From Balanoglossus misakiensis (lineage: Eukaryota > Animalia > Hemichordata), in assembly GCA_040954595.2 (NCBI GenBank), contig CM082576.2, forward strand, positions 9,613,129-9,677,128: DNA of 64,000 bases. Direction: 5' to 3'. Below the pieces are notes generated by a model that had not been told where the DNA came from, searched no databases, and was given only the letters and a program-made list of their open reading frames with translations. Within the stretch, counting starts at the first letter, position 1, and each line of letters begins with the position of its first letter. A program made the position numbers and the translations under genes. Shown here one piece after another: positions 3,982 through 50,373 of this stretch.

Positions 3982-4046
3982 ATGATGGCGATGATGGTGA
4001 AGATGATGATGGTGAAGATGATGATGGTGATGGCGATGATGGTGAA

Positions 4047-4141
<95 letters not shown>
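3982..4141. repeat. (GAT)n trinucleotide microsatellite, imperfect 5' part then about 38 perfect units
   Basis: Directly visible; it produces the poly-D, poly-M and poly-I ORFs. Confidence 0.97.
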
Positions 4142-5218: not shown

Positions 5219-6203
5219 ACACGGCGAAATGCCGGGGACAGTTCCAGCGGGCTGCTTCGGAGGAATGCTCACTTGCAGAGCCGCAGGAAGCCAGAAGCTG
5301 TTGCCAGGCAACCCGCATAGTTGCCATGCGTCACATAGCTACAAGATGAAACGCGACACACGGAATGTGAACCATGCTGTTGTGAAGACGACGGCTGAAT
5401 TCAGCAAATTTCATAAAAAAAATTGATAACGTGAAATTTGATAGCCACAGTGGAGACAATATGCGACGTGCACTTAGTCAGGGAATTTCAGCGCATTGAA
5501 TCAAACGGTGTCAACCCGCCACGCTCCCCTCTCCTCCTCCTCCCCCTTTCCTAGGACAAGGACAAGGGACGTATAAAGACTTCCTCATCGGTATAAATAG
5601 GGGGCAAAGTAACTTCGCACCTGTTATTTGAATGTCTAGTTCCAGCCAACACGTAGCCCACCATAACAGTCGCCCTTCAGCCATTCCCCCCCTCCCGGGT
5701 TCTGTGTTTTTAGAAAAGCTGAACATGCAAACTCCGTGTGCGCCGAATGTCATTTCTGACTCAGTGACCCGAGCGACTGCGATGCTTAGTCAACCTTTGC
5801 CTTGCTACTGGGGATCGCGGGACAGCGTCTGTCATCGACCAGCCGAGCGACGCGTTGCAAACAGGTATTATTGCGTCGCCATGGCAAACCACTCGCGCTT
5901 CATCTAATAATACATCTATTCGCATCCTGTTGCTTTCCATCCAGTTCTCAGAGCGCCTTCGCCATGGCAACGGGATTCACTTATCGTCCACGTTGATGAC
6001 GTTGCTACGTCTCTCTTGCACACATTGTGTACTATGAAATGTCATGTGCCCGGCATTTTAAAACGTGTCTCCTAAAACCTGGTGTTGTCGCCATGTGCAG
6101 GTTTGTTGACAAATTGTGTGGATTCTTTCTGCTTATTGAATCTCTGATATTCGTCTCCACACACAAAGTACAAATATACATGTGTTGCGATAACATAGTA
6201 CTT

Positions 6204-6497
6204 ATACATACATACATACATACATACATACATACATACATACATACATACATACATACATACATACATACATACATACATACATACATACATACATACA
6301 TACATACATACATACATACATACATACATACATACATACATACATACATACATACATACATACATACATACATACATACATACATACATACATACATACA
6401 TACATACATACATACATACATACATACATACATACATACATACATACATACATACATACATACATACATACATACATACATACATACATACATACAT
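6204..6497. repeat. (ATAC)n tetranucleotide microsatellite, about 73 perfect units
   Basis: Directly visible; it produces the YIHT/MYVC ORFs. Confidence 0.98.
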
Positions 6498-9400
6498 TAC
6501 TTTCTTTTAGACTTTATCGTCGGGAAAAGTTCTTTCATACAGTGGACATACCATACAGTTGCAAAATAACTCAAGCTTTCAAAGGTTGTATAGCAACTAA
6601 AACAGCTGGACACATCCTCACACCATTTTGATTTGGATGTTTTAGCTTAATTACAATATTGGGATCGTGACAGCAGTCGCCATCAGACAAAACTTCATCG
6701 TTTTCCACCATGTGGCAACGCTCACAAGTCCCAGGGTTCAGCTGTTGAGGATCGCCTACGTCATGCGCGAATGAGTTGGTGAAAAAGAGATATGACAGTG
6801 TTTTGAAACAAACAACGCCTCTTCATCACGATTCATCCGACCAGAATCAAACAACATCCTCAGCGGACGTCCTCATCTTGTCTCAGTCTTCACCGTACCG
6901 CGCGCCCACTTTCTCTCCCAAACCCAAGTAAACCCGACTACAACTGCTTTTGTCGCCGGTCTGTCCACCAACCTGTCCCCATGAATGTCCCAAGTCGTGT
7001 CTTGTCACTCTGTTTTTTACCCCCTGTCGCAACAAGAACTCGAAAGTAACCCATCAAAAAATCCGACAACATGCACTGGTTTATTGGCAAGCGTAAACGA
7101 TCACCCGTCAGCTCTGAGTTGACGCCTAAATGATCATTCTACCAGCGGTGAGGTTCTGTCGACAGCGCACGTCACAAGAGTGATTTATCTTCAGAAATGG
7201 TATTTCCATTACTGGGCACTTGGTGAAGTAAAAAAAAGAGATCCAGGCATGACCGCGATGAGAGACGATTCTTATTGAAAATTGCGCAAAAGGAGATTAT
7301 TTGGTTCTGTGGTGACCATGGCCACGAATCTCCGCCAAATTAACCCCCGTTCGCCTTTCTTAAAGGTCTTTTTTTTTATCCCTGTGTGATGTTTCTTCAT
7401 TTGAAAAGAAGGTTGGGGACAAGCCCCGCTTGTGATGATACCGTCAGCCCAGAGTCGTTAAAATGTGGATGTTTTGTACAACATCGCCATTTGCAAGCAG
7501 GATATTATATTTGCTCAATGACACCAGTTGCTGACAATCGCTCTGTTGACACGCGAGGTCAAATGTTACGCCACCGTGCCCTCCGCCGCTGTTTCCCCCT
7601 CCGCGAGAACACGAGACAGGAAAATTGCTTCCAGACCGCTGCGTCTATTTTGACGCTGCTCGCGTGTGCCAAAAGAGAAATATTTTGTTTTAGGACGTTC
7701 CGGTTGGTTATTTTGTGCGTTACCGGCTCCTGTAAAACCTCTCGACACGGACTTGCATGTTCGAGTGTTATAACAGTGAGGGCAGACATTTAACCACACA
7801 GAAAACGCCCCCATTGAACCGTGGTTAATTTACATATGTGGGTTGCCATGGCAGAGAATATCCGAGTGGTTGGCACGCATCTGTTGCTGTTCGGCGAAAT
7901 AGCCATTAAATGCAGCCAAAGACAAAGGCAAACAACGCGATTCTTTGAGAACTGTATGTTTCTTAGACACTCCAATAGGAGGTCTCCAATGACGACGTCG
8001 CGGCTTACGGCTTTGTTCGCAAGGTTTGCCCAAAATAAAGGGCTGCCGGGATATTGACAAAAACAGAGAGAGGGAGAGAGTTTACAGAAATATTTGTCTT
8101 TGTCAAGTCAAGCTAACTTTCTCAAAGGGTAACCGAGATCAAGCCTTTTTCAATGGCTATGATTTTTATGGTCACGCGTCGGCAAACAGGAGTGCAATTG
8201 GCACCGCATCGGAGAAATAAGTGGGGGGAGAGGCAGCGTCCGTGCGCAACGAAAATGGCGAATACGATATAAAACAAGGTGGCAAAAGACAAAAGCGGCT
8301 GCGAAGACGAGTTGTTCACTTTCTGAACACGTCTTGAGTGGAATGGATACTTGCTATTTCATTACAAAACCAACGTGATCATCCTTAGCCTATTGATTGG
8401 GCATTCTTTGCCGGGTCTACGAGCACAACCTGGTAACCCAAAACGAATGCTTGTGGGGACCTCATTGTCTGCCATAGCGTCCATACGTGTCTTTTTGTCT
8501 AATGAATGTCACCCGGGTTATTGTGGAAAAATAACATCTTGTAGCGCCTCTACTTTGGGCGCGAACTTAACAGTTTCTGGCGAAACTCTCGCCGCCCCTG
8601 GGCCATCTTTTAAGCGCCTACCCAAGCGTACAGGCTCGGATGCGTAAGGAAAATCGGCGAAACATGAATCATTAGAGAACGCCAAAAGGTGCGGGTTTTT
8701 GTAAAACGACCCACTCGTTTGTAAAAAAAAAAAAACACCCAGTGAGATAGAAAGACGAACAGACAGGTACTATACAATTGGTGTATATCATTTTTATGTG
8801 TTTCAAACTTTTATTGACAGCTATTGGAGTTCTATCGATGAAAAAACGTGAACTCACTTGTACATCAAAATCAACATAATTCAACACCACGCATACGTAG
8901 TCTGAATCGCCAAAGGGCGCCAGGAGAAACACACGGTGGAAATGTATACAAACATCAGTTTTTTATATAAATTTATAGAAAAAAACGCAAACTGTCTCAA
9001 CTACATGTAAAGACGAGATTCTTTTAAAAAATGTAAATCACAAGAGAAATATGATGGGTAACCAGTTTTCACTGCGTTACCCTTAGTCACACGAAGCAAA
9101 CAGCAAAGTTTTCACCAAGAAAAAAACCAACGAGGTTACCTACAACATACTTTCAGTACCATTGCGAAGTAAACCAGTTTTGGCAATTAAAAGACGCCGA
9201 GTACAAACTGTCCATTTGGTCTCCGGACTGCTCGACGGTGAGATTCTCGCAAGAATTCACCAAGGGTCAGTCAAGAATCCCTATAAGAGTGAATGGCTTC
9301 TGGCATCGCCGGGACCAAAATATTTTTGAAAACTGTTTATACCAAGTTGAAAGCTATGACACAGTGTTTTCGTAAACCCCTGACGTATGCAATCGATCGG

Positions 9401-9653: not shown

Positions 9654-10919
9654 TTACATGTGGATGGGGTGGAAACGCTGTGGGTAACTTGTTATGCTCT
9701 TGGTTGGAATGGGCTTAAAGATACGGGGCGTAGTCACGGAATTTATGGAGTCGTGTAACGCTGTGGCAGGTGGCAGTGTTAGGTTGAGCGGAGGTGGCAG
9801 AGTGGCCGCATTGCTCGCCGTCGACGTTGGTATCATGGACGTCGAGTAGAGACTCGGCCGAGGGTACAGGTTGACGGCCTCGTAGAACAGCGGGGTACAT
9901 CCGATCTGGTGCGTCGCCGACGGCGGGCCGGCCGTCGACGCCGTGTGGTGGTGCGAGTGGTGAGTGTGGCAACTGCACTGGTTACTACAACCGTTGCTAC
10001 CACTGCTACCGTTGCTGCTGCTGCTGGCGGCTGCAGCACGGTACAGAGCCGCCAGGTGGCTCGGGGTATAGTCTCCGAACGCGGCGAACGGGTAGTGGTG
10101 GAAGTGGTAATCGCCGTGGTGGTGGTGTCCGCCGTCCGCCAGTGGAATTGATGGGAAAATAAACGCACCTTTATCGTTATCTTGTTCCCGCACTTGAGGG
10201 TGGACAATCGCACTTATCGAATGTTTGATTTCCGACTGTTTGCCACCCGACGATGGAGTGTCTGTGATTGTCTTGTGAATATTCATCGAGATCGAACCTT
10301 TACCTGGCTCCTGCCAGAAAGATGCCGGAAGGCGACGCTTCCGCAGGGGCACGGGGTTATTACCCCCTCCCTTTTTGTCACTCTTTTTATTCTCGTCAAC
10401 TTCGTCCTTTTGGTAACCGCTCTCACTCTCCTTCCGATACTCGCTTCGGTACTCGCCCGAACTTCCGAGAGACATGTCCGTGTTGTAGCTGAATTCGGAG
10501 GCGCTGTCGCTGCCTTCCGACGTCAGGCTGGAGATGCTGGCCGACCGTTTCTTCAGGCACCGTATCGGCTCCACCCGACCGCCGGCGTGGACAACGGCGC
10601 GCGTGTACTCGGCGGCCCGTTCGCGGTCGGTCGGCGAAAAACGTTTCAGCTGCTTCTGCAGGTACTTTCGGTGGTCGACCGACTTCTTGCACGGGGCCGA
10701 CTTGTCGAGGGCGGCTTTGATGTCACAAGATGCAAGGTTCACGAAGTTCAGCAGCGTCTTCACATCACCTTCAGACGTCGGTTGGGTCTGGGCCATTCTA
10801 TCCGTCGAGCGGCCGGACTGGGAGCTCTCCTGCGAGTTGTCCGCCCCGCAGTTGTGTTCCGACTGTGGTCGCGAACTCGCCTCTGGTTCCCCACTGGAAT
10901 GCTGTTCGGCTTGTGTCAT
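9654..10919 (-). CDS. FAM181: FAM181 family protein (TEAD-interacting), single coding exon, ~421 aa from ATG at 10919
   Basis: The ORF contains the FAM181 N-terminal signature LLNFVNLASCDIKAALDKSAPCKKSVDHRKYLQKQLKRFS and the YAP-like TEAD-binding omega-loop motif VPLRKRRLPASFWQEPG (~10303-10353). The ORF track starts at a TTG (10976); the first in-frame ATG is at 10919. A minus-strand AATAAA lies at ~8809-8814. Confidence 0.93.
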   Translation of the reverse strand: MTQAEQHSSGEPEASSRPQSEHNCGADNSQESSQSGRSTDRMAQTQPTSEGDVKTLLNFVNLASCDIKAALDKSAPCKKSVDHRKYLQKQLKRFSPTDRERAAEYTRAVVHAGGRVEPIRCLKKRSASISSLTSEGSDSASEFSYNTDMSLGSSGEYRSEYRKESESGYQKDEVDENKKSDKKGGGNNPVPLRKRRLPASFWQEPGKGSISMNIHKTITDTPSSGGKQSEIKHSISAIVHPQVREQDNDKGAFIFPSIPLADGGHHHHGDYHFHHYPFAAFGDYTPSHLAALYRAAAASSSSNGSSGSNGCSNQCSCHTHHSHHHTASTAGPPSATHQIGCTPLFYEAVNLYPRPSLYSTSMIPTSTASNAATLPPPLNLTLPPATALHDSINSVTTPRIFKPIPTKSITSYPQRFHPIHM

Positions 10920-15200: not shown

Positions 15201-17911
15201 TACCGTCCCGAGCGGAGACAGGCCCATCCAGATGTAATCATAGTTGTTTTTCACCATGTGCAGCTATTTCTTTGCATTCATATATTGTGCAGCCCAAAGT
15301 GGTGTCATTTCAAAGGATGAAAATCGGGCTTGTTAGCTTGTTGATTTTTTTTGAATGGGAATGGATGTCGGACCATGCAAATCAACCAGACACGCTTTAT
15401 CGCGCAGTTGTCCAGTGATATCACAGTTATGCAAATCTACGAAAATGTATAATTTTTTTAAAACGTCTCAGCTCCTATAAATGTGCATCACATTTTCTGA
15501 AATTTCAGTGCCTGGCGCCCGGGCATGTAGGTACATGTACACACCGAATGATTTCTTAATGATATAGAAAAATATATTTTGGGGGTTTCTTGGACAGGTT
15601 TGTCGGTTTTTGGGACAATGTCACCGCATCACACTTTAGTCGCTCTGACGTCACTCATACCAAGCCACGGGGTTACCAATGTTCACGCATCATGATTTTG
15701 CTGTGATTCGATTTCAAATTAATATTCACTTTATTGAGGCTGCATATCAGAAATGTTGAAAAGGGAAGAATTTTAAGTGAGCAAAACAAGGAATTCTTTC
15801 ACGCAGGGAAAACCGAATGCCTTACACGTCATTACAAGCGAGGCGATCACTCTGGAGCAGAACCCGAGAACGGTTCGGCACCAAAGGTCGCCCATCCAGG
15901 GATTCGAAGTATTTAAGATTCGCCTCGGACAGTGATTTCTGACCTGTAAACAATTTTCCCCCGCGAGGCGTTTCTATTATAATGTGACACAAACATTTAA
16001 TGAATAGTCCTGTAAATATAATACCGGAGTATGAATACAAGAACAAATATTTTCCTACATCCTCTCCATTTTTGTGCTGGACTTAATTAGAAAACAATTC
16101 GGTGACGAGGGAGACAGGGTATGTCTTCATTAATGTTCCGCGCAGGCTTCGCGTTTCGTGTGAAGCCTTTAAAGACAAGGGTCCTTCCTAGTCAGTGAAC
16201 TGCAGTCGGCTATACGCAGAATGTCGAGCTATGATATTTTTGTTTACCCCGAGAGCATAATAATTCGGGCTCACTGAAAAAGAAATTCGAAAGCTGACGA
16301 AGATCCTAGCGAAAGAGTGCGAGAAAAACGATTGGCGAAAGTGCAGCGAGATTTGCTTAGCTGAGTGGCGTTTCTGTTTTGCACGGATTGATTTGATTCG
16401 TTGTATTGCGAGTAAAGATGACGGATGAAGTTGACATAGTATCGGATGATTCGTTTTGTAAATAGCCAACACGGACATCAAAAGAAGAAGAAGGAAAAAA
16501 AACTGTGCATCCGGTGTGCTGACATTCTAATGCCCCAGTCTCCACAACAACGGCACAAGAACCATTTGCAATGCAAAGGGTTCCCGTTTTCAAAAGGCAG
16601 GGGTGGCGTCTACGAGACAGGCCAGGTTCGCCTGGCATTCTCCGTTTTCCCCCTTTCCGCTCTTTGCCTACAGACAAATTGACCCCTATGGTGCTGTGAT
16701 TGAAAGGGTAAAAAGAGAGATTTTGTTCTGTAACGTCAGTGAAAGTCACCTGACGACTCCCCGAGCAGACTGTAAAATATGTTATTTGACAGATGCATAT
16801 GTAAATACGACAGTAAAATATTATGCCGGTAAACAGCCATGAATACAGAAACACGCATAGCTCTTCCCCGAACAACTCGATGGGTGGTTACCCCGGCAAC
16901 ACTCTGTCATGTCAGCGGGACACAGAGCGTTGCTACGAGATGCCGCAACTGGAAATGAAGTATGGGTAAAGGATATTCAGTACCCGCTGAAATAACCCCA
17001 TAAACATCTCCACAACGCGGCTATTTCGTTTCATTTCACTTTCCACGGAAATTGCAGGATTAGTTTCGGTTGCCATGTGAACAAGAATGTTGAAATTAAT
17101 TTGGAATATCTGTTTGTGCAAGACGACCAGCGTCGGAGACGTCAAACGTTGCACGCACCGGTGTAAAGATACGGTTTGCTTCGGTGAAGAATGTCATGGT
17201 TTTGATGACATCCTCGCAAGACTGCAAGTTCCATGCCGTCGAAAATCGGTTTCCTAGCTGCGGCCCTCTCGGGCACTTCCCCCGGCGTATACTTGCCGTG
17301 CCCGTCGAGACAGCGAAGGTGCGCTTTTAAAACAACTGCGCGACGCGTCACAGCCAGTTATATTAGATAGATGGCTCGCTGGTATATAGCATGTAACATG
17401 CTGTAGCCATGATACGCAGGACGTGTACATCTCATTTTGAGTGTGATCATAATGTACCGGGTGTACACAATAAAGATAAAACCGACTGACGTTACAGAGA
17501 ACGAATAGAAAAGAGCCACAGAATATAAGTTGGCAGAGTTTCGCTGCTACTCGAAGCTTAATCTGATTAGCATATCGTCCATGGGATGTGATTGTCCAGT
17601 TCTAATCCCCAAAAATAATGCCCCAATGGTTAGTTTTCTTTCGAGTTCGTTAAAAAATCCACCTTCATCAACCCACCTGGCTTCAAGTGGATCGGCAGTT
17701 GTCGACAGTTTTCTTTATGCGACAATCACGAAATGAGAGATATCGAATCAGAGAATGCGTAAAACCTTGCAAATTCCATGGACTTGTTTTATGTGTTCGA
17801 CACGCAAGAGACAAATTCATTGTCCGCCTTCAGCACCTTCAGCCATATGATATTTCGCTTGTTTTATGCGTATAATATACATGGTGGGTTAGAGGTGAGA
17901 GAGGGGATGAG

Positions 17912-17935
17912 GAGAGAGAGAGAGAGAGAGAGAGA
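17912..17935. repeat. (GA)n microsatellite
   Basis: Directly visible. Confidence 0.9.
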
Positions 17936-20900
17936 CCAGCACCGTACGTGACGAAATCGGTGCTGAAGCCAACAGGATTCACACGGAGTCTCGGCCTCAA
18001 CCTCATCAGGGAGAAAACGACGGAAAGGTTATGAAAACTCTAAGAGTCATGGATTCCAGCACACCATGGTCTGGATCGCCGGCTGGGACAGAAGCGAAGT
18101 TTGTGAAATAAGCCACGCTTCGCTCCTAATCGATTATCATCATCATAAATCTGAGGTTGATTATTAGGTGTTAATGATAATCATTACCTGGAAATCGAAT
18201 CCGTATCCCGTTTTTGCTTTACGCGTATAGAAATCAACCGCCAACAATGTGCTAAACAATTAACCCTGACTGTATGTCTGGATACGGTCATTCTTTCCCC
18301 CTGCAGCTGTTTTGTGTCGACTGTTTCGGAGCGCGCTGGCAGCCTGGATGTCATCTGAGGTCACTCTCAGACATCTATTCTGCAATGGCGGAGTCGTTTG
18401 ACGGACGTCGCGTAATACAGTAGCACCTGCATGGCCGGCAAATTCTTTTTGCTCGATACATTGTTCTGCTTCGTGTAAAATCGCCCCCCCCCCCCGAAAA
18501 CGAAACCATCTTGTAGAAAAATAGAAGAAGACGCACTTTTTGATGTCAATTATTGAAATGTCAATTTAATAAGGTGGATGCCCAAACATTATGCTTAACG
18601 CCATCGCTTTGCCAAATATACACAGTCACTGTTGCCCCCCCCCTCCCCCTTGAACCAGGGAGTAAGTGACTCGGCGTATAGGTATGTGGAATAGTGGTGA
18701 CACATGGAGTCCATGTTCCTGTCAGGTTTTAACAAATCATACCACTTTATTATGGGATGACGTATTTATAGCCACCGACTGCTAGTCATAGACACTAGGA
18801 ACAGGTGTGGTTATAGCAGTGCACTATTCGACATTGAGTGTTATTTTATATTGTATACAAACACAAACTCATATATGAGTCAGAGAGAAAAATGGAAATT
18901 GGGTTTATTTATTTGACATTTTCAGCTTATGCACGGAATAATTTTCAACGGAAACGCGTTCATGTTAATAAGGGGATATGGATGAAATGGAGCAAAACTA
19001 AAACGAAATATGTTAAATAGACGTGGGTCTAATTTTTTCGATACCTTCCTAGATAGCAAAATCCTGTCAAAACTTAACAAGCGTTGATAAATATGAATAT
19101 TGGGTGAGGCTGTCAATGAGAATAGTGAGATAGTGCACAGGGCTTTTCCGAATTAAAGTGTGCTAATGATATGTATCTATACAACTTCACAACTTTTACT
19201 CCCTCCTTTTAATCTTTCACGTTCCGATTACGCGAAGGGACACTCTTCATGATCGCCATCGCTATCGTTCTTGTTGTTGTTGCTTTTTTTCTGTTATATA
19301 GTGAGGTATTTCGACTTCGTGATCAATTTTGCTCGTGCAAGCTGTACAGCACATTTTCCTTCAAACACGGACTTTTACCGACTCGAACACGTTCTGGCGT
19401 GACGATTGAAATAACAAGATCGAGATATTATTACAAATCGGTCACTGATGGGGATGGCATGAAAAGTGAGTTTGAAGACAAATCTATTCGTTCTCTCCGA
19501 TTCTACACAAAAGGTGTTTGAAAACTGTCAAGACGGGTTTCATGAATTTGAATTGATGCATACAACGACTAAATCCCGTTGTCACTGTCTATATTAAAAC
19601 ACAAGGCATGGTAACTGTAGCTTTTATAGTTCAGACGATGGTGGCATGGGCTTGGGGAGAACATAACGATTGTTTGTGTCGATCATCGCAAGATAATCAT
19701 GACTGGACTGCGATGTCTCAGACATCAACCAAACAATACCGCAGACATTTAACATTTTTCGAACATTTGACGACCACGTGGTGAATCTATTCAGATTCTA
19801 GTTTCATCGGATTGACAACGTCCGTGTATTTGGAGTTTCATCAAACCAAGGTTAAATGCAAATGCTATGCAAACGGTCAGTGAAATGTGGCCTTTATAGG
19901 ACGCAAGAATCTCAGAAGCCATTCGCTCGTTACCCCCACGACTCCATAACAACATGTTCTGTCATAGACTTGTCCGTCACCCGACGACATTGATCGTAGA
20001 ACAACTGTCCCCGCTGACGACACATCGCCTGCATATAACCTGCACGACGCATCCGGTAATTTAATTACAATCATCCGTCCCTCACTCGTCACAAACGATG
20101 TGAGCATTCCCCAACACCCAATTCAGGTTGTTATGCCACCAAACCCTGATTTTTCTCCGCGTTTTCTTTCGCCGACGTGATCACATAATATCTTTCACTT
20201 GTACGCAGAAGGCCTCCCCTTTCAACGACAAACAATAGCGGCTGACGCTAATTGGCGACGATTATTCATTCTCGACTGAGTTTCACCACTTCTGTCGCAA
20301 GGTGGCGCTTCTGGCGCGGCGCTGGCATGACTTCGCCATCCCCTCCACTCCGCTGTATCCGGACTGCAACCACATGAGTTGACTTTGACAATTTGCTGAG
20401 TTGCGGACAGAGACAGAAATTTTCGGAGAGTCTGGACTCGAGTCACCACGAAAAGAATTTTGTTCGCACCCTGAAGCGTAATTTGTCTGTTTGTTTTTTT
20501 ATTGTGAAAAGAGGGCAAGGGCTTACATTCTGGGAGGGGGTCGTAAAACTGTTGTTTCTTGCAAACTATAAATTGCGCATCATCTGACATGCTTCAACGA
20601 CAAAACAGAAAGTCTGGGAGACGGAAGAAACCCTTGAAACTCAGACAAAGCGTGGTGGCCGATCACGAACCACAGCCATGTAGGGTATGAATAAATAACA
20701 GACTTTATTTGGCGCATGAATGGTTTCTGGAACTATGATTGCGCGCAAAACGCGAAATCGTACTTGTTCTATTTTTCACTAAATGCTGTTATTACCCACC
20801 CCAAAAAAATATTTTAAAAGGGTGTCTGGCGAAGAAATGGATAAGAATCAACACGAAGGAGGTCATTGCGTAAACACGCTGTTCGCATAACGCGTTCTGT

Positions 20901-21145
20901 GAGCACACTTTTTAGAACGCGCGCGCGTAAAGCAACGGTTAGAACTAGCCAACCAAGCGGAATATTAGACAAATTTCCGACCGCACCTTTCCGACGAAAA
21001 TCTAGAGAATACGGAAAAAAATGTAGAGGTATCACTCAACTCGCAAAAGCAACATCAAACCTCGTATTTATGACTTCGGAAACGGAATCCTGCAGATCTG
21101 AAGTGCTAAAAAAGTTCTTTTTTACGTGCATGCAATCAAACCGCG

Positions 21146-24100
21146 ATGAAGCTCGGCGCAGTATCATCTGAAACAGCAGTGAGATCGACAGCTGATGTCT
21201 TTGAGCACCGCTTGCGCACAAAGAGAGGAACTGAAAACGGGAGACGCAAACAGCTGGGGCAACCGTTCCGAAACGAGGCAAGTTCTGACAACCCGGTGCA
21301 CAAATGCGGCCGTTGCAGGACAATTGCCAAGGACGACGACGATCCCAGGTACCGACACGACAGCCGGCAACTGGAGAACGTGGCATTCCTTCGGCCGGGT
21401 TCGCCGGCGTTGCCCGGGCGAAGTCACGCAGATAAGTCGACCGGCACTGATGATTTGTACAGTGATAATAACGCGAGAGTAACCGAGAACTCGGAGTCAC
21501 CACGGAGATGCCACTCTGCCAATGACACCCGGCGACACCACAAGGAGCCGCCATTGGCGACCTCAGGTGCGCGAGGTCAGCAACATCACGATCGCCAAAA
21601 TCGGGGGAAACAGGGCCAAGAGAGCGAATACGGAGGCCACCTGGTGCCGGAAGACATGATAACAAAGAAGATCACGAGAAAAAATGTGACCACCAGCGTC
21701 AGAAATATGAAAAATGAAACAGAGAAAGAAAGGAAAAGTCATTGTTACGGGTTGCCTGGATACACCCACTACCATGACTACGAGGTGCCGGAAAGAGACC
21801 AACCACGTGACACAGTTCGAGCTGTCAATCATGGCGTAGAATCAGAATATGAGGCTCCAGCGACGATAATTCCCCGTGGAAACGAAATCGGCCATATTTC
21901 GTTAACGCAAGAGAAAGAAAGTATAGTCGTCAAGACACTCAAGAGAGGTGAAGTTGGCGGCGCACACAAACCGGATCCATGTTCTCAATTTCACCAAAAA
22001 CAAACGCCCATAAAAGCGAAGAGGCGTGGGAGTGACGGCATTGGAAGTAATGACGTCAGAGAAGCCGCATCCTCTCAACGCGTAAGGCTTCAAACCCGGT
22101 CATCGATGACTTCTTTGGCTCAAAATATCTCTAGATTATTATTCCCGTATTTTCTCTTAGGCTCTAATTAGGATCTACGCCCACTAATCGGCAAACATTT
22201 TACAACAACATTTATGCCTACTGGCAATCGTGGGCAAAGTCAACATTTAATCCACCAGGCGATGAAATTCTATTTCCCATTCATGTTTGCCTGTAAGTGC
22301 ATCTTCAAGTCCAAAGACACAATCAGAGCTCGAAAATCTATAGTAGTGTTATACGAAATAGAATACTGCCCCATTCGCATTTGCTGTCAGTCACAAACAA
22401 CTGATTTAAACTTGAACTCGAATTGCTTTTTGTGTCGTTCTTTGAATCCAACAGGTTGCAGGAAAAAGAGCAAACCGTGACAGATGTAGACCAGCGAACA
22501 AAGTCAACGTTAGCATAAAGCCGGATATCGAACCAACGGCCGACAGATTTCGTTCAATTGACAGTGGCCTTCAATGTCTTTCAATGGATTGTCCCGGTGT
22601 CTGTGGCTCACCCAGGGTGAGCGATTTGCATCAAGCAGACGACAACTGGAAGACCACGGTAAGGTTTGGTAAAGTTGTTTTATGTATTTATTAGTTTGGG
22701 GAGGGGGGGGGGAATCAGCCTACATAGATAATATGCCTTCATTAACTGAATGGTCATACACATTTCAGGTGAACGCTCACGATATCGCGGGACGAACCTC
22801 GAGTGCAAGATTCAAGACCCAGGAGTCGAGTGTGATGCGAGGCGAGACAACAGCAGGTCAGTATAGCCCCGTTTCAAGTTCCACAATGCATTGCGCGCTA
22901 CCCATAGGTTTAGAGCAGGCGACATCCTCAACGCCTCAAAGTTCCGGCGTTATTTTGCCACATTCTCATCTCTTACGTAAAATCGGGAGAGATGTGACCA
23001 AAACGACCTAAGGCGTTGGTTAAAACAAGTTGATGTTGGCAATGCAAGAAGTATAGAGAGAAAACAAACAAAGGTCGGGAAATGATATGATGATCCCTTT
23101 TACAACAGGATCGGTTAATCGCGATGGATTGGTGCACTTTCGCCTCTTCAAACAGACGGCAGATGAAGTCAAGTCTAGTGAGTTTCTTTCTTGGTTTATT
23201 TCAAAGGAAAATTTTGACAAAAGGTGATCCAGTGTCGAGGAAGGGAATGGAAAACTGAAACAATCAGTGAATGTTAGTGTTTAACATGATTTGGGTTGTA
23301 GTGAGTGGACCAAGAAAACGGTTTTTGATACCCGAAACAAAAATGCACGCAAAGTTATCAAAAGTGACAGCTGGTATATGGCAGATCACAAACAATGATT
23401 GAGTATCACAAGTATTTTTTATTCGTCTCTAGTGATAGATCAAATTCAACAGTACGTCTCAAAAAGGCGAAGTTGGCGTGATATAGCGAGTTTTACAGGT
23501 AAGGATAGTGTACACTTTCTTTTTTATCAATAAAATTGCATGCACGTATGGTAAACTCATAAAATAATACACACACACCTTCATTCATTGATCAAGCGAT
23601 AATAAACGTCTCAAGCTAAAAGTGTACATTCAAGTAATAATTTGTTCTTCGTGTCGGATTTACACTGTTCTCAGATGGGAGAGACTCAGATAATAACCAG
23701 GGCGACGTCTCAACTCAACGGAGCGGCCACAGACGTTCTCGGTCTGAGGGAGCAGTCGGGCCGAATAGCAATAACCCATGCGTTCTATTGAACGCAAGGA
23801 GATCTCGTGGTAGGTATGGACTGGCTTTGAACTTGCCTATGGACTGGTCAGTTAACTAACGTTGGTAACATTTTGGCGTTGTAAGTATGCCCTCATTTCA
23901 AGGGATACTTCTTCGTCTCAACAATACTGGCGATATCGGTAGCATAGTTGACCATAAAGTCGCAGATATATTCGAATTTTTCACAAGTATATAAAATTTG
24001 ATGATTTTGGTCACTTACATTTTCTATTTCTTTTTTTCCCTATCTAGCGGTTCATGGAGCCGATGTAATTTCCAGTTTGAGCGCACTTCCTGACATAGTC

Positions 24101-24878
24101 GCCGAGATGAAAAACATCGGAGACAAACTAGAAAGGTTTCTTTGCTATCAGTCTACGTTGGCCGCGAGGAACTCGACGCCGAGTCCTACTCCTTGTCCCC
24201 CTCCGCCACCGCCCAGGAAACCCGTAACTTTGCTAACTTCAAGTTGGACGAAGGGTGAACGGAGAGCGAGGCGAGAAAATGCGCCCAGTCTCCACTCGAT
24301 GTTATTACTGGAACTGAAACACTTTTTCGATATAGGTATATACAGAGTGTAAATCAAAGATTTATTTTATTCGTATGATTTTTTAAAGACAACACTTGTC
24401 AATTTATGAGGGTAATTTTTTTTAATTTGTTGGCTATACGGAACTGCGTACATGAAAATGTGGTGGGTTGAAAAGGGCCAACGTACACTGTTGCTATATA
24501 TACGTGTGTTCCAGCTTATTATTATTTTGAAATAGATGTGCCTGCCAGATAGACATTTTTCGAAGTTAGCACAGGGTGCATGAGCTCATAGTTACGAGTT
24601 AGATGTAGCACTAGAAGCGAGATTACTTTCTGAGTATGTAGGCGTATAAGCTTTGGTGTCTACATATTCTACATGTTTGTACATATCTTCAACCATAGAC
24701 TGTCTACTATGCTTCAACAGGTAGGCCGCTGCGCAGTGTTGTCGAGGGAACTACGAGTCCTGCTGAAGTTGCCAAGAAGTCGTCCTCCTTGGAGGCAGTT
24801 CTCGAGAAACGTCGAGCGTCCATTCAAGGGATCAACACTACTGCAAGTGGAGAAGAAGACGACGGAGCCTGGAATTGA
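21146..24878 (+). CDS. Uncharacterised 7-exon gene (~624 aa): disordered N-terminus, C-terminal poly-Pro + WH2 + Central + Acidic(W) module; candidate Arp2/3 nucleation-promoting factor
   Basis: Exons 21146-22081, 22455-22658, 22769-22856, 23433-23498, 23675-23809, 24048-24335, 24721-24878. All introns are GT-AG, phases 0,0,1,1,1,1 are consistent, there is no internal stop, and the total is 1875 nt. Spliced C-terminus: CPPPPPPRK...APSLHSMLLLELKHFFDIGRPLRSV...SSLEAVLEKRRASIQGINTTASGEEDDGAWN*. AATAAA at ~25175. Confidence 0.75.
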
Positions 24879-25550
24879 TTCCTGGAAGTAGGCTAGGAAT
24901 CGGCGCGGATAATGCGCACACAGGCCTGAAGAATTCGTCAATTACATGAAAAGTGATATAGGACATTCATTATATATCGGCATGGGGTACACTGCAATTT
25001 GATCATTTAATGTCAGTCGGAAGATCGATGATCTTTGCTTTCAATTTTTCGTGAATCTTTATTTCAAAAAACGTTCTGCAGTATATTTTAGGCCTATAGA
25101 CTGACTTCAATAAGCTTCATGCTTACAATTTTGGAAGTGTATTTTCCTGTGAATGGTATTATAATATCATTGGTAAATAAATGTTACGGAGTTTTTCCTT
25201 GCATCGTATGCATATTTCTTCAATGTCAACCAGAAAGTTATAAGCAGACTGTACGAGGACGGGGCTACGATGGAACTCCATAGGCCTAGGCTTATCAGCA
25301 AACTTTGTGCCCGGTATATCGATAACTGTCTAATCTCTGTACCCGAGATCAAAGAACAAGTGGATTTCAACTGAGTTTATTGTAAGACAAACCCACTGTA
25401 TTTAATAGGGGAAACCCAATGCTCACCAGAATTTCCCGCTGTAATATAAAATCGCTTCACGTTTATAATGTAAACATTTTCACCGAAACACTGTAGTTTC
25501 ACTTATTACCCAGAATGCCGCACGACGCAATCGTTTCATTCATAACGAAA

Positions 25551-28500
25551 ATGGCGGTGATGCTATCGTTGTTGTGGGGACTGCTGGCCTTAGCTGACTC
25601 GGTGCTGGCTTCCCAGCCGTGCTCGCCGGAAACGTTACAACTGAACCTCAGCTTCAAGATACAGGAAGGCGGCGCGGGGAGGAGATCGGGGAATAGGTGT
25701 TCGCGGGAAACCAAAGTTACCGTGGAGATCCCCGTCTCCGGCGGTTACAAGGAGAGCAACTGTGCCCACTGCGGCGGCTTCGAATCACTTCCCAAATTGA
25801 ACATCGGAGAGCTCGTTCCACAGTGCGGTAGGTGTTCTCCCGGACGTCCCCCATAATAATCCATACTTTCACCGAGGCTGCTCGCATCCTCGCCGTGTTG
25901 TTTACCTTGTTGGGTCCCTCATTTCCGGGTTGTCCCTCACGTTCCTTGACATTCACTGAGGTCACCCTTCAGGTCACATTGAAAGCGATCATCGGAGCGC
26001 GGAGATAGGGACGCACCCGCGATCAGCTGACTACCTGTCACAGAATTCCCTATGATGACATCGACACGGCAGACTTTTCATCTAGAGTTTCGATGACTGC
26101 ACTTAATTAAAAAAACAGTTTCCAGTTGTTCTCGTACATGCATCTCGACGTTTAAAAACTCGATGGTCATTATTGTTTTCTAATAATAATTTTTAATGTT
26201 TGTACTATATTTTGGTCGATTAGAATGCAGTTTTTAATATGCTCATCATTATCAAATCACAGTGTGTGCATAGAGCCACATAGTATGTGCTACCATTGCC
26301 AGTCTCTCTAGGGATTAAAAGTGGGATATAAAATCATTACTGCCATAATCTCCAGAGTAATAAGAAATACAGAGAGACCTAGCTGAATTCTACTATAATC
26401 CCCACATCACTATTATAACTTCAATAAACATGTCTGGAAATGTGTATCGCATTCCGCAGCTGCAGTGACAAGCACCTGCATTTGAAATGTCAAAATGCTG
26501 AATGTCCAAAACAAAACATGTAGGCAGCCAAAAGAAAAGAAAAGGAAACAAACATATCAACAACAACTGATGTTGATTTAAATTGACCTTGACCTTGTGG
26601 TGAAAGGTCAATGACCTCACAGTCACCATCTCCACAAAGAACATTCGCACCATTTTGACTTTTGCTGTTTACAAATGTCCTAAAATAAAAATTCCTCATC
26701 TTTGCCAGTCACATTCTATTTATTTTGCTACATGCACTGTGAGGGGCAGTTTTTATAAATAGTACATGTATACTCTGGGTTTACAGACGAACAAAGAGAA
26801 ACTATTTCTCTTTGTCTATGGCTTACATTAATCCATCCAATGCCCATATGCTGTCAGATGATACTAATGCCATTTAAATTGTTGCAAGGGTGTACATTAC
26901 TGTCAAATAATATCAGAGATTTTTGGTGTGTCGTCGTTTCACGGTCCCTTTGTGGAGAGGGACCATGGTTATTTTTCAAAACACTGAAATCTGTTGATGT
27001 GTCTTATTATTTGATAACCGCAGTGTTCTGAGTGTTTGACAGGTTTTATACTTTACAATGATTATTATGAATAATCGAATATGGCAATTGCTGTGTGTAA
27101 TTAATGTGCATAATTTGAGGTCATCTGGAGCATAGACCCTGTTGCTCTAGGGTCTAAGTTGGCTGGAGCTTGCGTTGCTTGGGTTTTGCTCTTCGACTAT
27201 CATCAGGTGGTTCTAGAATTGTTTAGGTGAAACTAAATAAAGGCTAAAGCATTATCCTACCTGCTCCCAGGAGAATGGCACCTGTACTGTCATCGTTGCA
27301 TGGCGCCTTTTACTTGAGTCACAGCTCACTGCTTTTATATATGTGTAAGTATTGTCATCCCAGAGATGGTGTAATACATGTGACAATACTACTTACTTGT
27401 ATCTATATACAAACAATAAAAAAACTTATACACCTAATGACTCTCAAGTGTAGTAATAAAGTTCATCATCAGATTCATTAATGTAACTGCTGGGATGTTG
27501 GAATTTGCCCGATGACGGGAACTTATGCCTTGATGGAGGGGAGGGGGCTGGGGGTGATTGATGATGGAGAAAGCTCTTAATGAGATTACTAAGCCCTGCA
27601 GCGCTGCACATCATCGTACAGAATGGGGTCAATTCTCTTGCAAATCTATAATTCATTTCTCCAAGTAATGAGCAAACAGGCGGCTATATTTATCTTGAAC
27701 CAAAGAATGTCAGGAGACAGGGAATGGATTCTCGGCTTATTCCAAGTACCGCACTTGCAGACATTTTAGAGATGCCTGTAGCATCTGACTACTAGTGTTT
27801 ATTGTCTGTCACTAATTACATTAACAGGACCAGGAGGAATTTTTTCACAAAATTTGGCAGTGTGTGTGTCTGTCTTTTTTGTGCTCGTACAGAAGATGAC
27901 AGAAGAAGTGCTCTTCTCTGACTAAAAATTTCATTAGCTACTTGCCACATCGCTTGCGTAGTCTGTACTGTTGTATATAGCCTGTTATGAATTTAAAATG
28001 CAGCTATTGCTGTTGCTTACATAGCCTTATTTAGCTCTCCTATCGTTTACGTGAATGTACGTGTATGCTATAAGATGTGTGAGAATGAGGTTCTAAATTA
28101 GCTACATGTATTTGTGACTCATGGTGAAAAGAAATAAGACTTTGGCGTGCGGTTTTGTCATTTTCGCCCAGTTTTTCTTTCTACAACTTGATTTATTATT
28201 CCTCCTTAATAAAAACACCAGGAATACAAAAGTGGCAGATGACATCCGCTCCCTGATCCTGGCGCATCCACATGTTACCATGTATCACAGAGTCCGACTT
28301 GCTAATGACAGTCATTGGGAATTGCTCATAAATTTCTCCCCACACCACCATGCGGGTCACGGCCATCAAAATTCCAAATTAAAGCTATTAAACTGAAAAT
28401 TTCACTCTCGAATTGACATCATGCCTCACACACAAGCAGTAAATGTGTCAAAGTAATGACCCCCTCCCCCCCCCCCCCCCATTACTGGCAGCATATGTTG

Positions 28501-37500: not shown

Positions 37501-40500
37501 GATTGAAGATAATCGCAGTTTGACTTAGAAATGTTTTACAGGCTTTTTGTGCCCACAACAGTAGATGACATATTGTAATTGCCATGTCCTCATGGGTATG
37601 CTGTAGTCCGTGGCATTTATATACTTTGTTGATGGATTTGGAGGGGGGCTGTTAAGTCTCATGCAGTGATTCATATTTGTATTTCAAAGATGGTGGTCAT
37701 CGCGTTCCATTGTGTACCACGTATTTCTCCCTTGAACTGATGACAGGTGCCAATGTCGTCGGCGTTGCAGGCCGCATTCTGACACCACGGGGAATCTCGC
37801 CACTTCAGAGCCCAACCGTCGGATTCCACCAATGCTAGCAATTCGCCTTTTTATCCACGCAGAATTACCTTGCCGCTGAGGAGGACTTCAAGAAATCCCT
37901 GGAACTCGACAAGAACCAGTCGGAGATCATGCACTTTCACGGGCTGGGGCTCTACCACCAGGGGAAAATTAAGGTGAGTGGTGCCCTCTAGAGTTGGACT
38001 GAGACGAAAGAAAAGAGTCAGAACAGGTGTTATGTTTCAGAGAAAAAGAAACTGCAGTTTTTGTTTGCTGTGGCTTTTTTTCTCAAGTCAGTAAAAACTG
38101 ATCATTTTAAAGTTAACTTTTCATTCAAGCTAGGGTAGGGAACAGTACACAACTATGTTACTTCCTGAGCTAACAAACAGATTATGCCAGTTCAACATAC
38201 TGTAATATCTTACTCGAATGGACTGTCAAGAGTAAACACCCTTGCATATCAGGGAAATTTTTCATCCTTCGTTTCTGATACAGATTTAGTGTGATCACTT
38301 CACCAATCGTAATGAGATATTCCAGTGATATTAGGCGGTTGAATTCCCCAACAAATTCATAGTAACCATAGGCGGCATTCTTGTCTGCACTCTTCGGATG
38401 ACAATTGTTATTAAGGCCGTGTTCGCTCGACGGGAGTTCTTGACGTCAAAAAAAGATCGCACTATTTCCGTCAGACTGAGGGGTAAAAATAGCCCTGGCA
38501 TGCCTGGTGAAGTACTCGTAAATAAGTCACTGATTGCAGCTGTTTCCGCCGTTGATGTCATGCAACTTGAAAGCAGTTAGAGGGAAATTGAAAAGAAATT
38601 ATTGTATTTTTAGACGGAAGGGAGAGTAATTTGTTTTTGAAAATGATCGTCTGGAAGCAGAAACAAGACAAGGACTTCTAGACGTGTTCTGTTTCTGATA
38701 CAGGGATGTGAACAGAAGTCAAAAGTGTTCTGCCCGAAGAGAGGCTGGATCAGCAAAACTTTTTCCCACTGCCTGTGATTTTGAATAAAATTTGAAAGGA
38801 CGTAGGATACTGCCAGTTTAAAAATCACTTTGCATCAAGAAGGAACTTCTCAACTTTTTAACATAAAGTTTAAAGCTTTCAAGGGGAAAGTAATGAATGT
38901 ACATGTATACATGTATTGCACAAACCAACTTGACCATGGTACAGAGCTTTATTTCTGTCATCATTTTCTGTGAGAATTTATGACGTCACCACTTTTTAAT
39001 GTGATGTCTTGCTGCCCAATGATAATGTTAGTGTGTTGGCCATTCCTTTTCCTGTAGGAGTCAATTGAAGTATTTCACAAAACCATAGAATTGCAGCCAG
39101 AGTGCGTTGATTGCATTAGGAGTCTTGGACATGCCTACAGGTGAGTTTGATACAACCTGAATCCAAGATGGCTGCCACGGTTACCAAGATGGCTGCCGTT
39201 ACCGTCAAGTTGGTCTTTCTTGCTTTGCAAGCATACTAGTACATTCAAAAGTGTGAAACTTGTAACAGCATATTACTTTTGAGTGCAACCTAACTACACA
39301 TCATTTGGCTTCACTGGGAATTTCTTGAAGAATTTGACAGTAACTATTTTTTCATGTTGTGATACGCAATAACTCTGGGACGGTGTTATAATCTGCTTGT
39401 AGTCGTCGTCATTTAATGGGAGACAGAATTCCAGACATAAACAGCGTTGCAACATAGGCATGGTAATTGTTCTTGTCAACACAGTGAGGATTCTTAAAAA
39501 CATCAAGAAAACACAGACCATCTCTTTGACATTTCAGTAGGCATGTTATTTTCTTTAAGATTCCATCACATACACATATAATGTACCCCTCTTCTGCTAG
39601 TCACAACTGCCTTGGTCTCATAAAAAGAAAAAAAAATGGGTCGATCTTTAAGCCTGGTGACGTCACTTCACTGATTCTCCCCAACTTGTTTATTTTTCAC
39701 TGTCAATTTATTATTCGCATCTTTTTTCCCGCCAGAGAGTTGGGTGACTTTGAATCAGCCATGGCACATTTTAACTCAGCGTTAAGTCTGCAAGAAGATC
39801 ACATCCAGTCCTTGCAACTCAGAGGCTCGCTGCTCTACCAGAGTGGAAGACCTTTAGAGGCCTTAGAAAATTTCAAAGTAAATTTCCAAAGATTTTTTCT
39901 TATATCTTCCAAAAAATTAAAGATGACACTGCTCAACAAATTTTGTTCTCAAGTATTCGGTGCCATCACCGATAATCTCAGTTGATTGATTGAACTCTTG
40001 CTATTTCCATCCCTTTCTCTTTCAGAGCTGCACTGTGTTAGATCCAAACAACGAAGCCTGCGAATACATGCGTGGTCTTTCCCACGCAGCCATCGGCCAG
40101 TTCTACGAGGCCGTCAAATCCAACACAAAAGTTGTGCTCAACCCACCGTCTCCACGACAGAAACACACAAATGAATTTGGCAGGGTGCTTTATCTCAGAG
40201 GTTGGTGGAATTCTTTTCATATTGTTCGCTGTTATGAAACACTTAAAGAGAGCCCAGATTTGGAAAGAAATGTCTTGCAGACAACTCATTTCTTCCACCA
40301 AGTCAGCATGACGTGAATTAACCATGACTGTTATCCTGCAGTAGAGAGAGCTTCAAAGTTCATTTCAACCTCAGAAATTAAAAAAGAAGGAGATATTTCT
40401 GAATGATTGTTTTAAACGTTAAGGCCATGAAGAAGGGTAATTGTCTATCTACTAGGTTTAATTCAACAATCAAATCTTTGTTTTCCAGTTTCATTAAATT

Positions 40501-49600: not shown

Positions 49601-50373
49601 CACAAATATGCCATCATACCTTTGGATCCTCTCCAAACGTGACAAAGTAATGGTCTGGAAGAAGTGTCTTGGCTGCTCTCACTATGTCTTTGCACTTCTT
49701 GGGTGTTTCTTCTACTTTACCAGCAAGGAACAGACACGCAGCACCTGTGACCTGCAAAGAATCACACAGGACCGTGAAATACATAACTTGCTGCTGCTGC
49801 TGAACTTTCAGATATGGATTAGTAACAAATATATGAGTATTGGGGAATGCATGTCTTTCAGAAATTAACCCAGTAGTGTACAACTGTAGCCTGGAGAAGT
49901 GTTTAAGCCATACATGTACTTACATATCTTGGAAAAGACTTAAATGAATGGAACATGTAAAATCTATGGAAGTACACCACTCCTGTAGCAAGTGTGTCGT
50001 ATCTCCTGTTGTAGAGCAGTGGGGTCAAGGAAAAGTACATTTCAACAGATCCAATATTACAGGAGATATAAAGTCAAGGGGTTGTTTTGCAGGCAGTCTC
50101 CGCAGATATCCATTGATTAATACTAATTCTTTGCTAGTATGTTTTCAAGGTTCCATTTGCTGATGATTGCATCAACTTGGTCGAAATGTTATACATTACA
50201 TGTACATTTTTCTACAAGGTTAGTTTGAAAGGATACAGTCCTAGACTGGTTCCAGCATCGATGATAAACCTGGCCCCTTCTTTCCTGTATCTTGCCTCTA
50301 TGGAGAAATCTATCCCATCCTCCTTGCTTGGGGTCTTTTTCAGTTCACTCTTCTCATAATACCAGATCGGCAT
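46683..50373 (-). CDS. CCNK: Cyclin K, 8 coding exons, ~720 aa, with a long P/Q/Y-rich C-terminal tail
   Basis: Exons (5'->3') 50373-50237, 50005-49924, 49751-49620, 49391-49228, 49084-48915, 48708-48527, 48260-48221, 47938-46683 are phase-consistent. Cyclin K peptides: [97 protein letters not shown]. Confidence 0.96.
50006..50236 (-). other. U12-type (minor spliceosome) GT-AG intron in CCNK
   Basis: 5' splice site GTATCCTTT; branch sequence TTTTCCTTGAC (50024-50034) about 18 nt from the intron end; the flanking exons join in frame (LGL|RYDTL). Confidence 0.9.

What the first reader, a model, noticed from the sequence alone, without database searches (positions are those of the whole stretch)
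21146..24878. Hidden orphan gene encoding a WCA/VCA-type Arp2/3 activator with no WASP/WAVE/WASH N-terminal domain
Seen: the ORF track shows only fragments, but seven GT-AG exons join with consistent phases into ~624 aa. The last junction (24335/24721) creates a WH2-like motif, PSLHSMLLLELKHFFDIG|RPLRSV. It is preceded by PPPPPPRK and followed by an amphipathic Central helix SLEAVLEKRRASI and an acidic tail GEEDDGAWN* with a penultimate Trp. Established: proline-rich/WH2/C/A-Trp at the extreme C-terminus is the architecture of class I nucleation-promoting factors (WASP, WAVE, WASH, WHAMM, JMY, Las17). The SLH..L..[IL] helix plus L[RK]xV resembles Cobl/Spire WH2s as I recall them. I see no WH1/EVH1, CRIB, WHD/SHD or WAHD domain; the first ~480 aa look disordered and basic. 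Inference: a lineage-specific, possibly undescribed Arp2/3 activator regulated by linear motifs rather than folded domains.
Basis: partly seen in the sequence, partly recalled or inferred. Interest (0 to 1): 0.85.

Follow-up and report, generated by a model that had tools for sequence, protein, structure and literature searches.

The report
Acorn-worm-type WH2 actin-binding scaffold gene
A predicted eight-exon gene with one found relative, in an acorn worm, encodes a mostly unfolded protein predicted to grip actin through a conserved WH2 motif; that relative lacks the tryptophan tip typical of Arp2/3 activators, so the protein is more likely an actin-holding scaffold than a branching trigger.

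Summary
The gene is real but not an orphan. HMMER over 1.84 billion representatives found one relative, an uncharacterized Ptychodera flava protein (659 aa; 234 of 647 residues identical). That protein reads through the 24335/24721 junction in the proposed frame and reveals a missed exon (23433-23498): eight exons, 647 aa.

The WH2-like helix (13/16 identical), its LR[S/K]V anchor (6/7), the basic C-like helix (11/13) and an upstream heptad helix (17/23) are conserved. The tail is not (4/19), and the relative has no aromatic residue there. Both copies lack one of the three hydrophobic residues of the published C motif.

A complex prediction docks the relative's WH2 on actin in the WH2 orientation (0.89, best control 0.42), possibly from memory of solved pairs. 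No folded domain and no significant Pfam match were found.

Best reading (0.45): a disordered scaffold that binds actin monomers by WH2, with Arp2/3 activation not its conserved job. Main rival (0.3): a weak or decaying WCA activator. No RNA evidence was obtained. The scan holds no look-alike on other DNA.

The parts
21146..22081 (+). Exon 1 (312 aa), disordered and charged. The start codon is uncertain: the relative has about 35 more N-terminal residues.
   Evidence: 113 of 312 residues identical to P0001; tblastn E 7e-35; no upstream match found
21161..21229 (+). Conserved N-terminal block with a loose Lifeact/ITPKA-type (SFM) pattern, VRSTADVFE
   Evidence: 15/23 identical; loose pattern shared by both copies, but 8% of column shuffles give that too
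21428..21493 (+). Conserved acidic-Tyr block (DDLY); a conserved YxxP lies at 21848. Possible phosphotyrosine docking sites (inference).
   Evidence: 14/22 identical; both Tyr align in the two copies; such patterns are common by chance
22455..22658 (+). Exon 2 (68 aa), predicted from splice signals and frame only
   Evidence: no significant homology
22769..22856 (+). Exon 3, predicted from splice signals and frame only
   Evidence: no significant homology
23109..23177 (+). Exon 4, start of a predicted helix
   Evidence: 11/23 identical; helix 412-445 in the model of P0001
23433..23498 (+). It completes a second WH2-like helix that keeps an LRSV anchor in P. flava and has RRSW here.
   Evidence: the WH2 helix pattern is shared by both copies, 0.2% of column shuffles
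23675..23809 (+). Exon 6 (alternative donor 23806), with a conserved HRRSxSE motif, possibly a basophilic-kinase/14-3-3 site (motif label recalled)
   Evidence: 13/45 identical; 20 of 2000 shuffles reach its score
24048..24335 (+). Exon 7: heptad helix, polyproline, basic linker, WH2 helix
   Evidence: 46/96 identical; phmmer E 7.4e-17 to P0001
24080..24148 (+). Strongly conserved internal helix with a 3-4 hydrophobic repeat over three heptads; likely a self-association element (inference, untested)
   Evidence: 17/23 identical; hydrophobic moment 0.52-0.54; helix with pLDDT about 70-78
24197..24214 (+). Polyproline run (6 Pro here, 5 in the relative); the following RK is not conserved
   Evidence: sequence; alignment
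24284..24740 (+). WH2 motif split by the last intron (helix 24284-24331, anchor LRSV 24729-24740). The helix also fits the SFM pattern LxxLxxxFD.
   Evidence: 13/16 and 6/7 identical; WH2 anchors shared in 0.05% and SFM pattern in 0.65% of column shuffles; complex prediction on the relative's copy
24721..24878 (+). Exon 8 coding part, ending in TGA
   Evidence: 24/52 identical; tblastn E 1.8e-5
24783..24824 (+). Conserved basic amphipathic C-like helix; two of the three hydrophobic positions of the WASP-family C motif
   Evidence: 11/13 identical; weak DUF1151 resemblance, E 0.18 here and 0.028 in the relative, under the cut-off
24825..24875 (+). Short tail with four acidic residues and a penultimate Trp; the Trp is absent in the relative
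   Evidence: 4/19 identical counting from 24822
25176..25181 (+). AATAAA, candidate polyadenylation signal 300 nt after the stop
   Evidence: not tested further

Best explanation
A predicted eight-exon gene, conserved with a Ptychodera flava gene, encodes a mostly disordered protein that likely binds actin monomers through a C-terminal WH2 motif and likely works as an actin-holding scaffold rather than a conserved Arp2/3 activator. Shown: the sequence blocks and their conservation. Predicted: WH2 docking in the cleft between actin subdomains 1 and 3. Inferred: the heptad helix makes the protein self-associate, so that several polyproline-WH2-basic-helix modules are clustered, as in the PRR-WH2-FAB module of Shootin-1 or the GAB-FAB module of Ena/VASP. 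Inferred: polyproline recruits profilin-actin or an SH3 partner, WH2 holds or hands over the monomer, and the basic helix tethers to actin. Inferred: Tyr and Ser motifs in the disordered part set place and timing.
For: One relative, 234/647 identical, with identity concentrated in the heptad helix (17/23), WH2 helix (13/16), anchor (6/7) and C-like helix (11/13), and low in the linker (3/16) and tail (4/19). The WH2 anchors align in both copies; 0.05% of 2000 column shuffles give that. Complex prediction with an Act5C-like actin: 0.89 in three runs, best of three controls 0.42, contacts agreeing at least 82%, partner pLDDT at least 70. The mark was reached by 51 of 78 solved and 2 of 108 mismatched microbial pairs, and by 71 of 105 solved and 2 of 126 unrelated eukaryotic pairs. 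L594, E597, L598 and F601 touch actin 144 and 346-356, and L608 touches actin 24-26, which is the WH2 polarity (polarity read from established knowledge and PMC3298513 section 11). No Trp or other aromatic residue in the relative's last 20 residues. No folded domain: 534 of 659 residues below pLDDT 50. A second WH2-like motif in the relative (431-445) fits a protein built on actin-binding linear motifs.
Against: The order polyproline-WH2-C-like helix-acidic end-stop is the WCA order, and both tails keep four acidic residues. Trp in the last 3 plus at least 4 acidic residues in the last 10 occurs in 1 of 863 reading frames of the window, this one. Only two sequences are known, and the relative's end is an annotation whose reads I did not see. 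Neither copy matches Pfam WH2 or the exact published WH2 pattern. The complex was folded for the relative's peptide; peptides lie outside the tool's calibration, and a WH2-actin pair may pass from memory. The C-like helix weakly resembles the part of DUF1151 that roughly maps to the DRR1 middle coiled coil, which did not bind actin alone, so a filament-tethering role for it is unproven.
Confidence: 0.45

Rival explanations
1. A lineage-restricted, weak or decaying class I nucleation-promoting factor. The WCA activates Arp2/3; this copy keeps the Trp, and P. flava has lost it or works without it.
For: WCA order at the extreme C-terminus. The C-like helix is 11/13 conserved and fits the basic cluster and two hydrophobic positions of the C motif. 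The acidic-Trp end is found in 1 of 863 frames. WASH homologues with no hydrophobic residue in the A region are reported (PMC3298513 section 11). WHIMP is a lineage-restricted weak activator (PMC7112243 passages).
Against: Trp absent and tail 4/19 identical in the only relative. The full C pattern is matched by neither copy. Only four acidic residues. Given an acidic tail, a Trp in the last three residues is not rare (45 of 863 frames).
Confidence: 0.3
2. A very diverged member of a described family with a similar tail (PRR11/MTFR, Cobl-like, Shootin-1, FAM107).
For: The Atlas's nearest clusters for the C-terminal 155 aa are PRR11 (0.77), Mito_fiss_reg (0.76) and a WH2-containing cluster (0.75). 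Weak DUF1151 hits in both copies. At 36% identity between the two copies, more distant orthologues could be invisible.
Against: The Atlas scores are below what a third of shuffled proteins reach (0.8). No Pfam match at cut-off for any part. The exhaustive phmmer search with exon 7 gave 1 hit at E up to 0.001. None of these families' folded or long coiled-coil parts is present.
Confidence: 0.1
3. The FFD helix is a Lifeact/ITPKA-type filament-binding motif (SFM), and the protein is an F-actin side-binder or bundler.
For: LxxLxxxFD is aligned in both copies (0.65% of column shuffles), and a looser VxxxxxxFE lies near the N-terminus (8%). Leu at P1 and Asp at P9 each occur in the published SFM list (PMC13364712 supplement 2, parts 1-2 of 5).
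Against: The model chose the WH2 polarity and used the LRKV anchor; that anchor is 6/7 conserved. The pattern was chosen after seeing the sequence. The prediction used monomeric actin, so it cannot exclude a filament mode.
Confidence: 0.08
4. The conserved helices serve a non-actin partner and the WH2 likeness is accidental.
For: No Pfam WH2 match, no match to the exact published pattern, no match to a solved chain. One unrelated control peptide scored 0.42 on actin.
Against: The conserved anchors span an intron, a second WH2-like motif is present, and the score is 0.47 above the best control with canonical contacts.
Confidence: 0.07

Closest known systems
XP_070579216.1, uncharacterized protein, Ptychodera flava (P0001)
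   Same: Colinear over the whole length, 234/647 identical; same heptad helix, polyproline, WH2 and C-like helix. Probable orthologue.
   Different: About 35 extra N-terminal residues; an intact second WH2-like motif; no Trp in the tail.
WASP-family class I nucleation-promoting factors (WASP, WAVE, WASH, WHAMM/JMY, WHIMP, WAWH, WAML)
   Same: Order of proline run, WH2, basic amphipathic helix and acidic end at the C-terminus.
   Different: No family N-terminal domain (WAWH keeps a GBD, PMC3298513 section 10); C motif incomplete; Trp not conserved; very short proline run.
Shootin-1 long isoform (coiled coils, PRR, WH2, FAB) and Ena/VASP (proline-rich, GAB, FAB, tetramer coil)
   Same: Proline run, WH2-like monomer site, then a basic helix about 17 residues on, with a candidate self-association helix; no acidic-Trp requirement (PMC12768439 and PMC3034019 passages).
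   Different: No EVH1 domain, no C-terminal tetramer coil, no long N-terminal coiled coils, no detectable sequence homology. A works-like comparison only.
Cobl-like
   Same: Mostly disordered protein using one C-terminal WH2 plus a proline-rich SH3 site (PMC5748978 passages).
   Different: No Cobl homology domain; extra C-like helix after the WH2.
SFM (Lifeact/ITPKA-type VxxLxxxFE) proteins
   Same: The WH2 helix fits the pattern in both copies.
   Different: It is followed by a conserved LR[S/K]V anchor, and the model docks it in WH2 polarity.

Membership tests
WASP-family class I NPF | WH2 motif (hydrophobic helix plus LKKT/V anchor) | tested here: met
   Anchors conserved in both copies and predicted WH2-mode docking. 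The exact PMC3298513 pattern and Pfam WH2 are not matched.
WASP-family class I NPF | C motif: three hydrophobic residues spaced by three, a basic cluster, a closing hydrophobic residue | tested here: not met
   Full pattern absent in both copies; the first hydrophobic position is Lys here and Ser in P0001; the rest fits (pattern).
WASP-family class I NPF | Acidic tail with a conserved Trp near the end | tested here: not met
   Present in the window copy, absent in the only relative; tail 4/19 identical.
WASP-family class I NPF | Proline-rich region before the WH2 | tested here: met
   6 and 5 consecutive Pro only.
WASP-family class I NPF | Family N-terminal domain (WH1, GBD, WHD, WAHD, WMD, IMD) | tested here: not met
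   No Pfam match; residues 1-411 of P0001 without secondary structure in a shallow-alignment model.
WASP-family class I NPF | Arp2/3-dependent actin nucleation | not testable with these tools
   Needs a pyrene-actin or TIRF assay; no Arp2/3 complex prediction was run.
WAWH | GBD/CRIB before the proline-rich region | tested here: not met
   No Pfam match; definition from PMC3298513 section 10.
Ena/VASP | N-terminal EVH1 domain and C-terminal tetramerisation coil | tested here: not met
   No folded N-terminal domain; the protein ends 17 residues after the basic helix.
Shootin-1 | Three consecutive N-terminal coiled coils | tested here: not met
   Only short helices at 412-445 and 512-553 of P0001; definition.
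SFM filament-binding motif | P1/P4/P8/P9 pattern with helix polarity opposite to WH2 | tested here: inconclusive
   Pattern met in both copies; the predicted polarity on monomeric actin is WH2-type; filament binding untested.
PRR11 / MTFR (PF05308) | Family profile match | tested here: inconclusive
   Atlas leads 0.77 and 0.76, below the chance bar; no PF05308 hit. The PRR11 families named by the Atlas (Pfam 38.1) may be newer than the scanned Pfam copy.
FAM107/DRR1 (DUF1151) | Family profile match at cut-off | tested here: not met
   14.9 and 12.3 bits against a cut-off of 25, over about 40 of 109 positions.

The most novel reading that the evidence does not exclude
An undescribed, acorn-worm-type family of Arp2/3 activators with no folded regulatory domain, caught in transition: one species keeps a working WCA with Trp and one full WH2, the other has no Trp and carries two WH2 motifs. 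The pair would be a natural switch between Arp2/3-dependent and Arp2/3-independent actin assembly, with a helix that may serve both monomer (WH2) and filament (SFM) modes.
Probability: 0.15. Interest if true: 0.8.

Novelty: new variant of a known kind. Interest (0 to 1): 0.48.

Why it matters
It adds a WH2 protein family that Pfam and sequence searches do not recognise, with a layout not among the WASP-family types in the survey I read. Two natural versions differ at the disputed points (tail Trp, second WH2). That gives a simple paired test of whether a WCA needs its Trp, a question PMC3298513 (2012) called open, and of how WCA modules arise or decay from linear motifs. If it only holds actin monomers, it is a modest lineage-restricted addition.

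Tried and rejected
No whole genome is held for this window, so paralogues and synteny were not examined. No RNA holder was listed; this says nothing on expression. Word-index searches with exon 7 and exon 8 against longer proteins gave 0 of 283 and 0 of 63 candidates; both missed P0001, so they are weak blanks. P0001 residues 500-659 found only itself among 1225 candidates. Exact look-ups of three neighbouring ORF translations: 0 of 3 in the collection. The Atlas search with exon 7 gave unnamed clusters and a DUF7212 cluster under 0.9. PDB sequence searches with P0001 whole and with its C-terminal part gave 0 matches at E up to 10. Foldseek with the low-confidence model gave 0 of 11 matches at E up to 0.001. 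Alternative last junctions (acceptors 24725 and 24699, read-through to 24352) were rejected on homology or loss of the conserved motifs. Cassette exons in the other five introns: 29 in-phase candidates, none with both positional homology and strong splice sites among the top four inspected per intron. A BH3-like look of the heptad helix (label recalled) was rejected because the Asp is Gly in the relative. No upstream exon matching the relative's first 42 residues in 17000-21400 (best score 29, next 26). Literature: hemichordate + WH2 domain + actin gave 1 paper, unrelated by listing; PRR11 or MTFR1 + WH2 + actin gave 0; two Shootin/VASP queries gave 0. The accession itself was not searched. 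One earlier scan note on a viral WCA look-alike did not bear on this gene.
Full report
Observation. No genome is held for the window and no RNA run was listed, so the gene model had to be tested by homology.

A relative. phmmer of exon 7 against 1,835,955,588 representatives gave one hit at E up to 0.001: P0001, E 7.4e-17, 52% identity. It is XP_070579216.1, an uncharacterized Ptychodera flava protein of 659 aa, from the acorn worms (Enteropneusta; placement of the genus recalled, class listed). tblastn places it on exon 1 (E 7e-35), exon 7 (2e-20) and exon 8 (2e-5) in order. The window is therefore probably from a relative of P. flava; this rests on one hit. The gene is lineage-restricted or fast-evolving as far as these searches see. 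Two word-index searches missed even P0001, a third found only P0001 itself among 1225 candidates, and at 36% identity between the two copies more distant orthologues could be missed.

Corrected model. P0001 has a segment after the exon 4 match that the seven-exon model lacks. Of 21 in-phase candidates in that intron, 23433-23498 has a 14/17 pyrimidine acceptor and a GTAAGG donor. It is 9/21 identical at the expected position (16 of 100000 shuffles). The eight-exon model is 647 aa and scores 717 against P0001, versus 662. The last junction is supported because P0001 continues FFDKG-RPLRKV; acceptor 24725 (637) and read-through (632) score lower. P0001 is itself an annotation whose exon structure and read support I did not see. 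Exons 2 and 3 have no significant homology.

What is conserved. Overall identity is 234/647. By block: N-terminal block 15/23, DDLY block 14/22, second WH2-like motif 7/16, heptad helix 17/23, proline linker 13/45, WH2 helix 13/16, anchor 6/7, linker 3/16, C-like helix 11/13, tail 4/19. P0001 ends without Trp or any aromatic residue in its last 20 residues, though both tails hold four acidic residues. An AlphaFold2 model of P0001 from a three-row alignment has pTM 0.26, 534 of 659 residues under pLDDT 50, and helices at 412-445, 512-553, 590-604, 610-617 and 629-645. Pfam finds nothing at cut-off in P0001 or in the window pieces scanned.

WH2. The exact pattern of PMC3298513 (section 11) matches neither copy. 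Its anchor positions match both at aligned sites (0.05% of 2000 column shuffles), and P0001 has a second such motif at 431-445 whose helix half is kept in the missed exon. These relaxed patterns were written after seeing the sequences, so the shuffle figures are optimistic. P0001 582-622 was folded with an animal-type cytoplasmic actin (L064; top PDB match Actin-5C) and ATP. The score was 0.89 in three runs against controls of 0.42, 0.01 and 0.00, with contacts agreeing at least 82% and partner pLDDT 70-72. The mark was reached by 51 of 78 solved and 2 of 108 mismatched microbial pairs, and by 71 of 105 and 2 of 126 eukaryotic pairs. The helix sits on actin 144 and 346-356, and L608 on 24-26, which by established knowledge is the WH2 mode. 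Limits: peptides and ligands are outside the calibration, WH2-actin structures exist so the pass may be from memory, and the window's own peptide was not the one folded.

SFM. The same helix fits the filament-binding motif of PMC13364712 (abstract, sections 6, 7, 8, 11, 12, passages, supplement 2 parts 1-2 of 5 seen; the other listed supplements were not read). It reads LLELKHFFD here and LKELNNFFD in P0001 (0.65% of column shuffles). That paper gives SFM and WH2 opposite polarity, and the model chose WH2. I keep SFM as a minor rival.

C and A. The published C motif needs three hydrophobic residues spaced by three; both copies have two, plus the basic triplet and the closing Ile. The partial pattern is common (about 47% of shuffled proteins hold one), so the evidence that this helix matters is its 11/13 conservation. 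Its only profile likeness is DUF1151, under cut-off in both copies. That stretch roughly maps to the DRR1 middle coiled coil, which did not bind actin alone (PMC6321462 passages). [quoted passage not shown] In the window, the acidic-Trp end is found in 1 of 863 frames of 40 aa or more, and Trp alone in 45 of 863. So the tail here is unusual but is not conserved in the one place it can be checked.

Mechanism. Most likely (0.45) the protein is a disordered scaffold whose WH2 binds G-actin (predicted). Its heptad helix, with six hydrophobic positions in 3-4 spacing identical in both copies (alignment), would cluster copies (inferred). Its polyproline and basic helix would load and tether actin as the PRR-WH2-FAB parts of Shootin-1 and the GAB-FAB parts of Ena/VASP do (inferred; PMC12768439 and PMC3034019 passages). 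A single WH2 with a proline-rich partner site suffices in Cobl-like (PMC5748978 passages). The main rival (0.3) is a weak or decaying WCA. A diverged known family (0.1; Atlas leads PRR11 and Mito_fiss_reg under 0.8; PRR11 recruits Arp2/3 through a proline-rich region, PMC8720695 passages), an SFM binder (0.08) and a non-actin role (0.07) remain.

Membership and novelty. It should not be filed as a WASP-family member: the C pattern, the conserved Trp and the N-terminal domain were tested and not met (definition also in PMC10330494, one passage). It may still work like a weak one. I found no paper on the gene in the searches; the accession was not searched, and most subscription journals are outside the library. 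The scan's own notes hold no look-alike. Verdict: a real, uncharacterized WH2 protein family of restricted range, a new variant of a known kind, interest 0.48.

Noticed in passing
window 9657-10919 (-): Single-exon FAM181-like ORF (family name recalled) with a TEAD-binding omega loop, Pfam TEADIR3 E 6.9e-8.
   Followed up: partly
window 25515-25828 (+), continuing to about 41880: An ORF with a signal-peptide-like start only about 640 nt after the stop; probably exon 1 of a TTC13-like TPR gene (resemblance recalled). TPR matches under cut-off at 39530-39982.
   Followed up: partly
window 46683-49919 (-): Cyclin K-like gene (name recalled) with a long Pro/Gln/Tyr-rich last exon; Pfam CycT2-like_C E 8.5e-4.
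   Followed up: partly
window 53266-54132 (-): Single-exon glycine N-acyltransferase-like GNAT gene, Pfam Gly_acyl_tr_C E 8.2e-8.
   Followed up: partly
window 21070-21146 (+): An upstream ATG in another frame lies before A6 and T6 runs. The relative has about 35 more N-terminal residues, so the true start may be upstream or a homopolymer indel may hide it; no significant match was found.
   Followed up: partly
window 19238-19287 (+): Short ATG-initiated hydrophobic stretch ending at a donor-like site; no Pfam match. Possibly the first exon of another gene.
   Followed up: no
window about 6200-6500 and about 4000-4100: Long tetranucleotide and trinucleotide microsatellites that give repeat ORFs.
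   Followed up: no
window 58291-58992 (+): 233-aa acidic low-complexity exon with no Pfam match.
   Followed up: no
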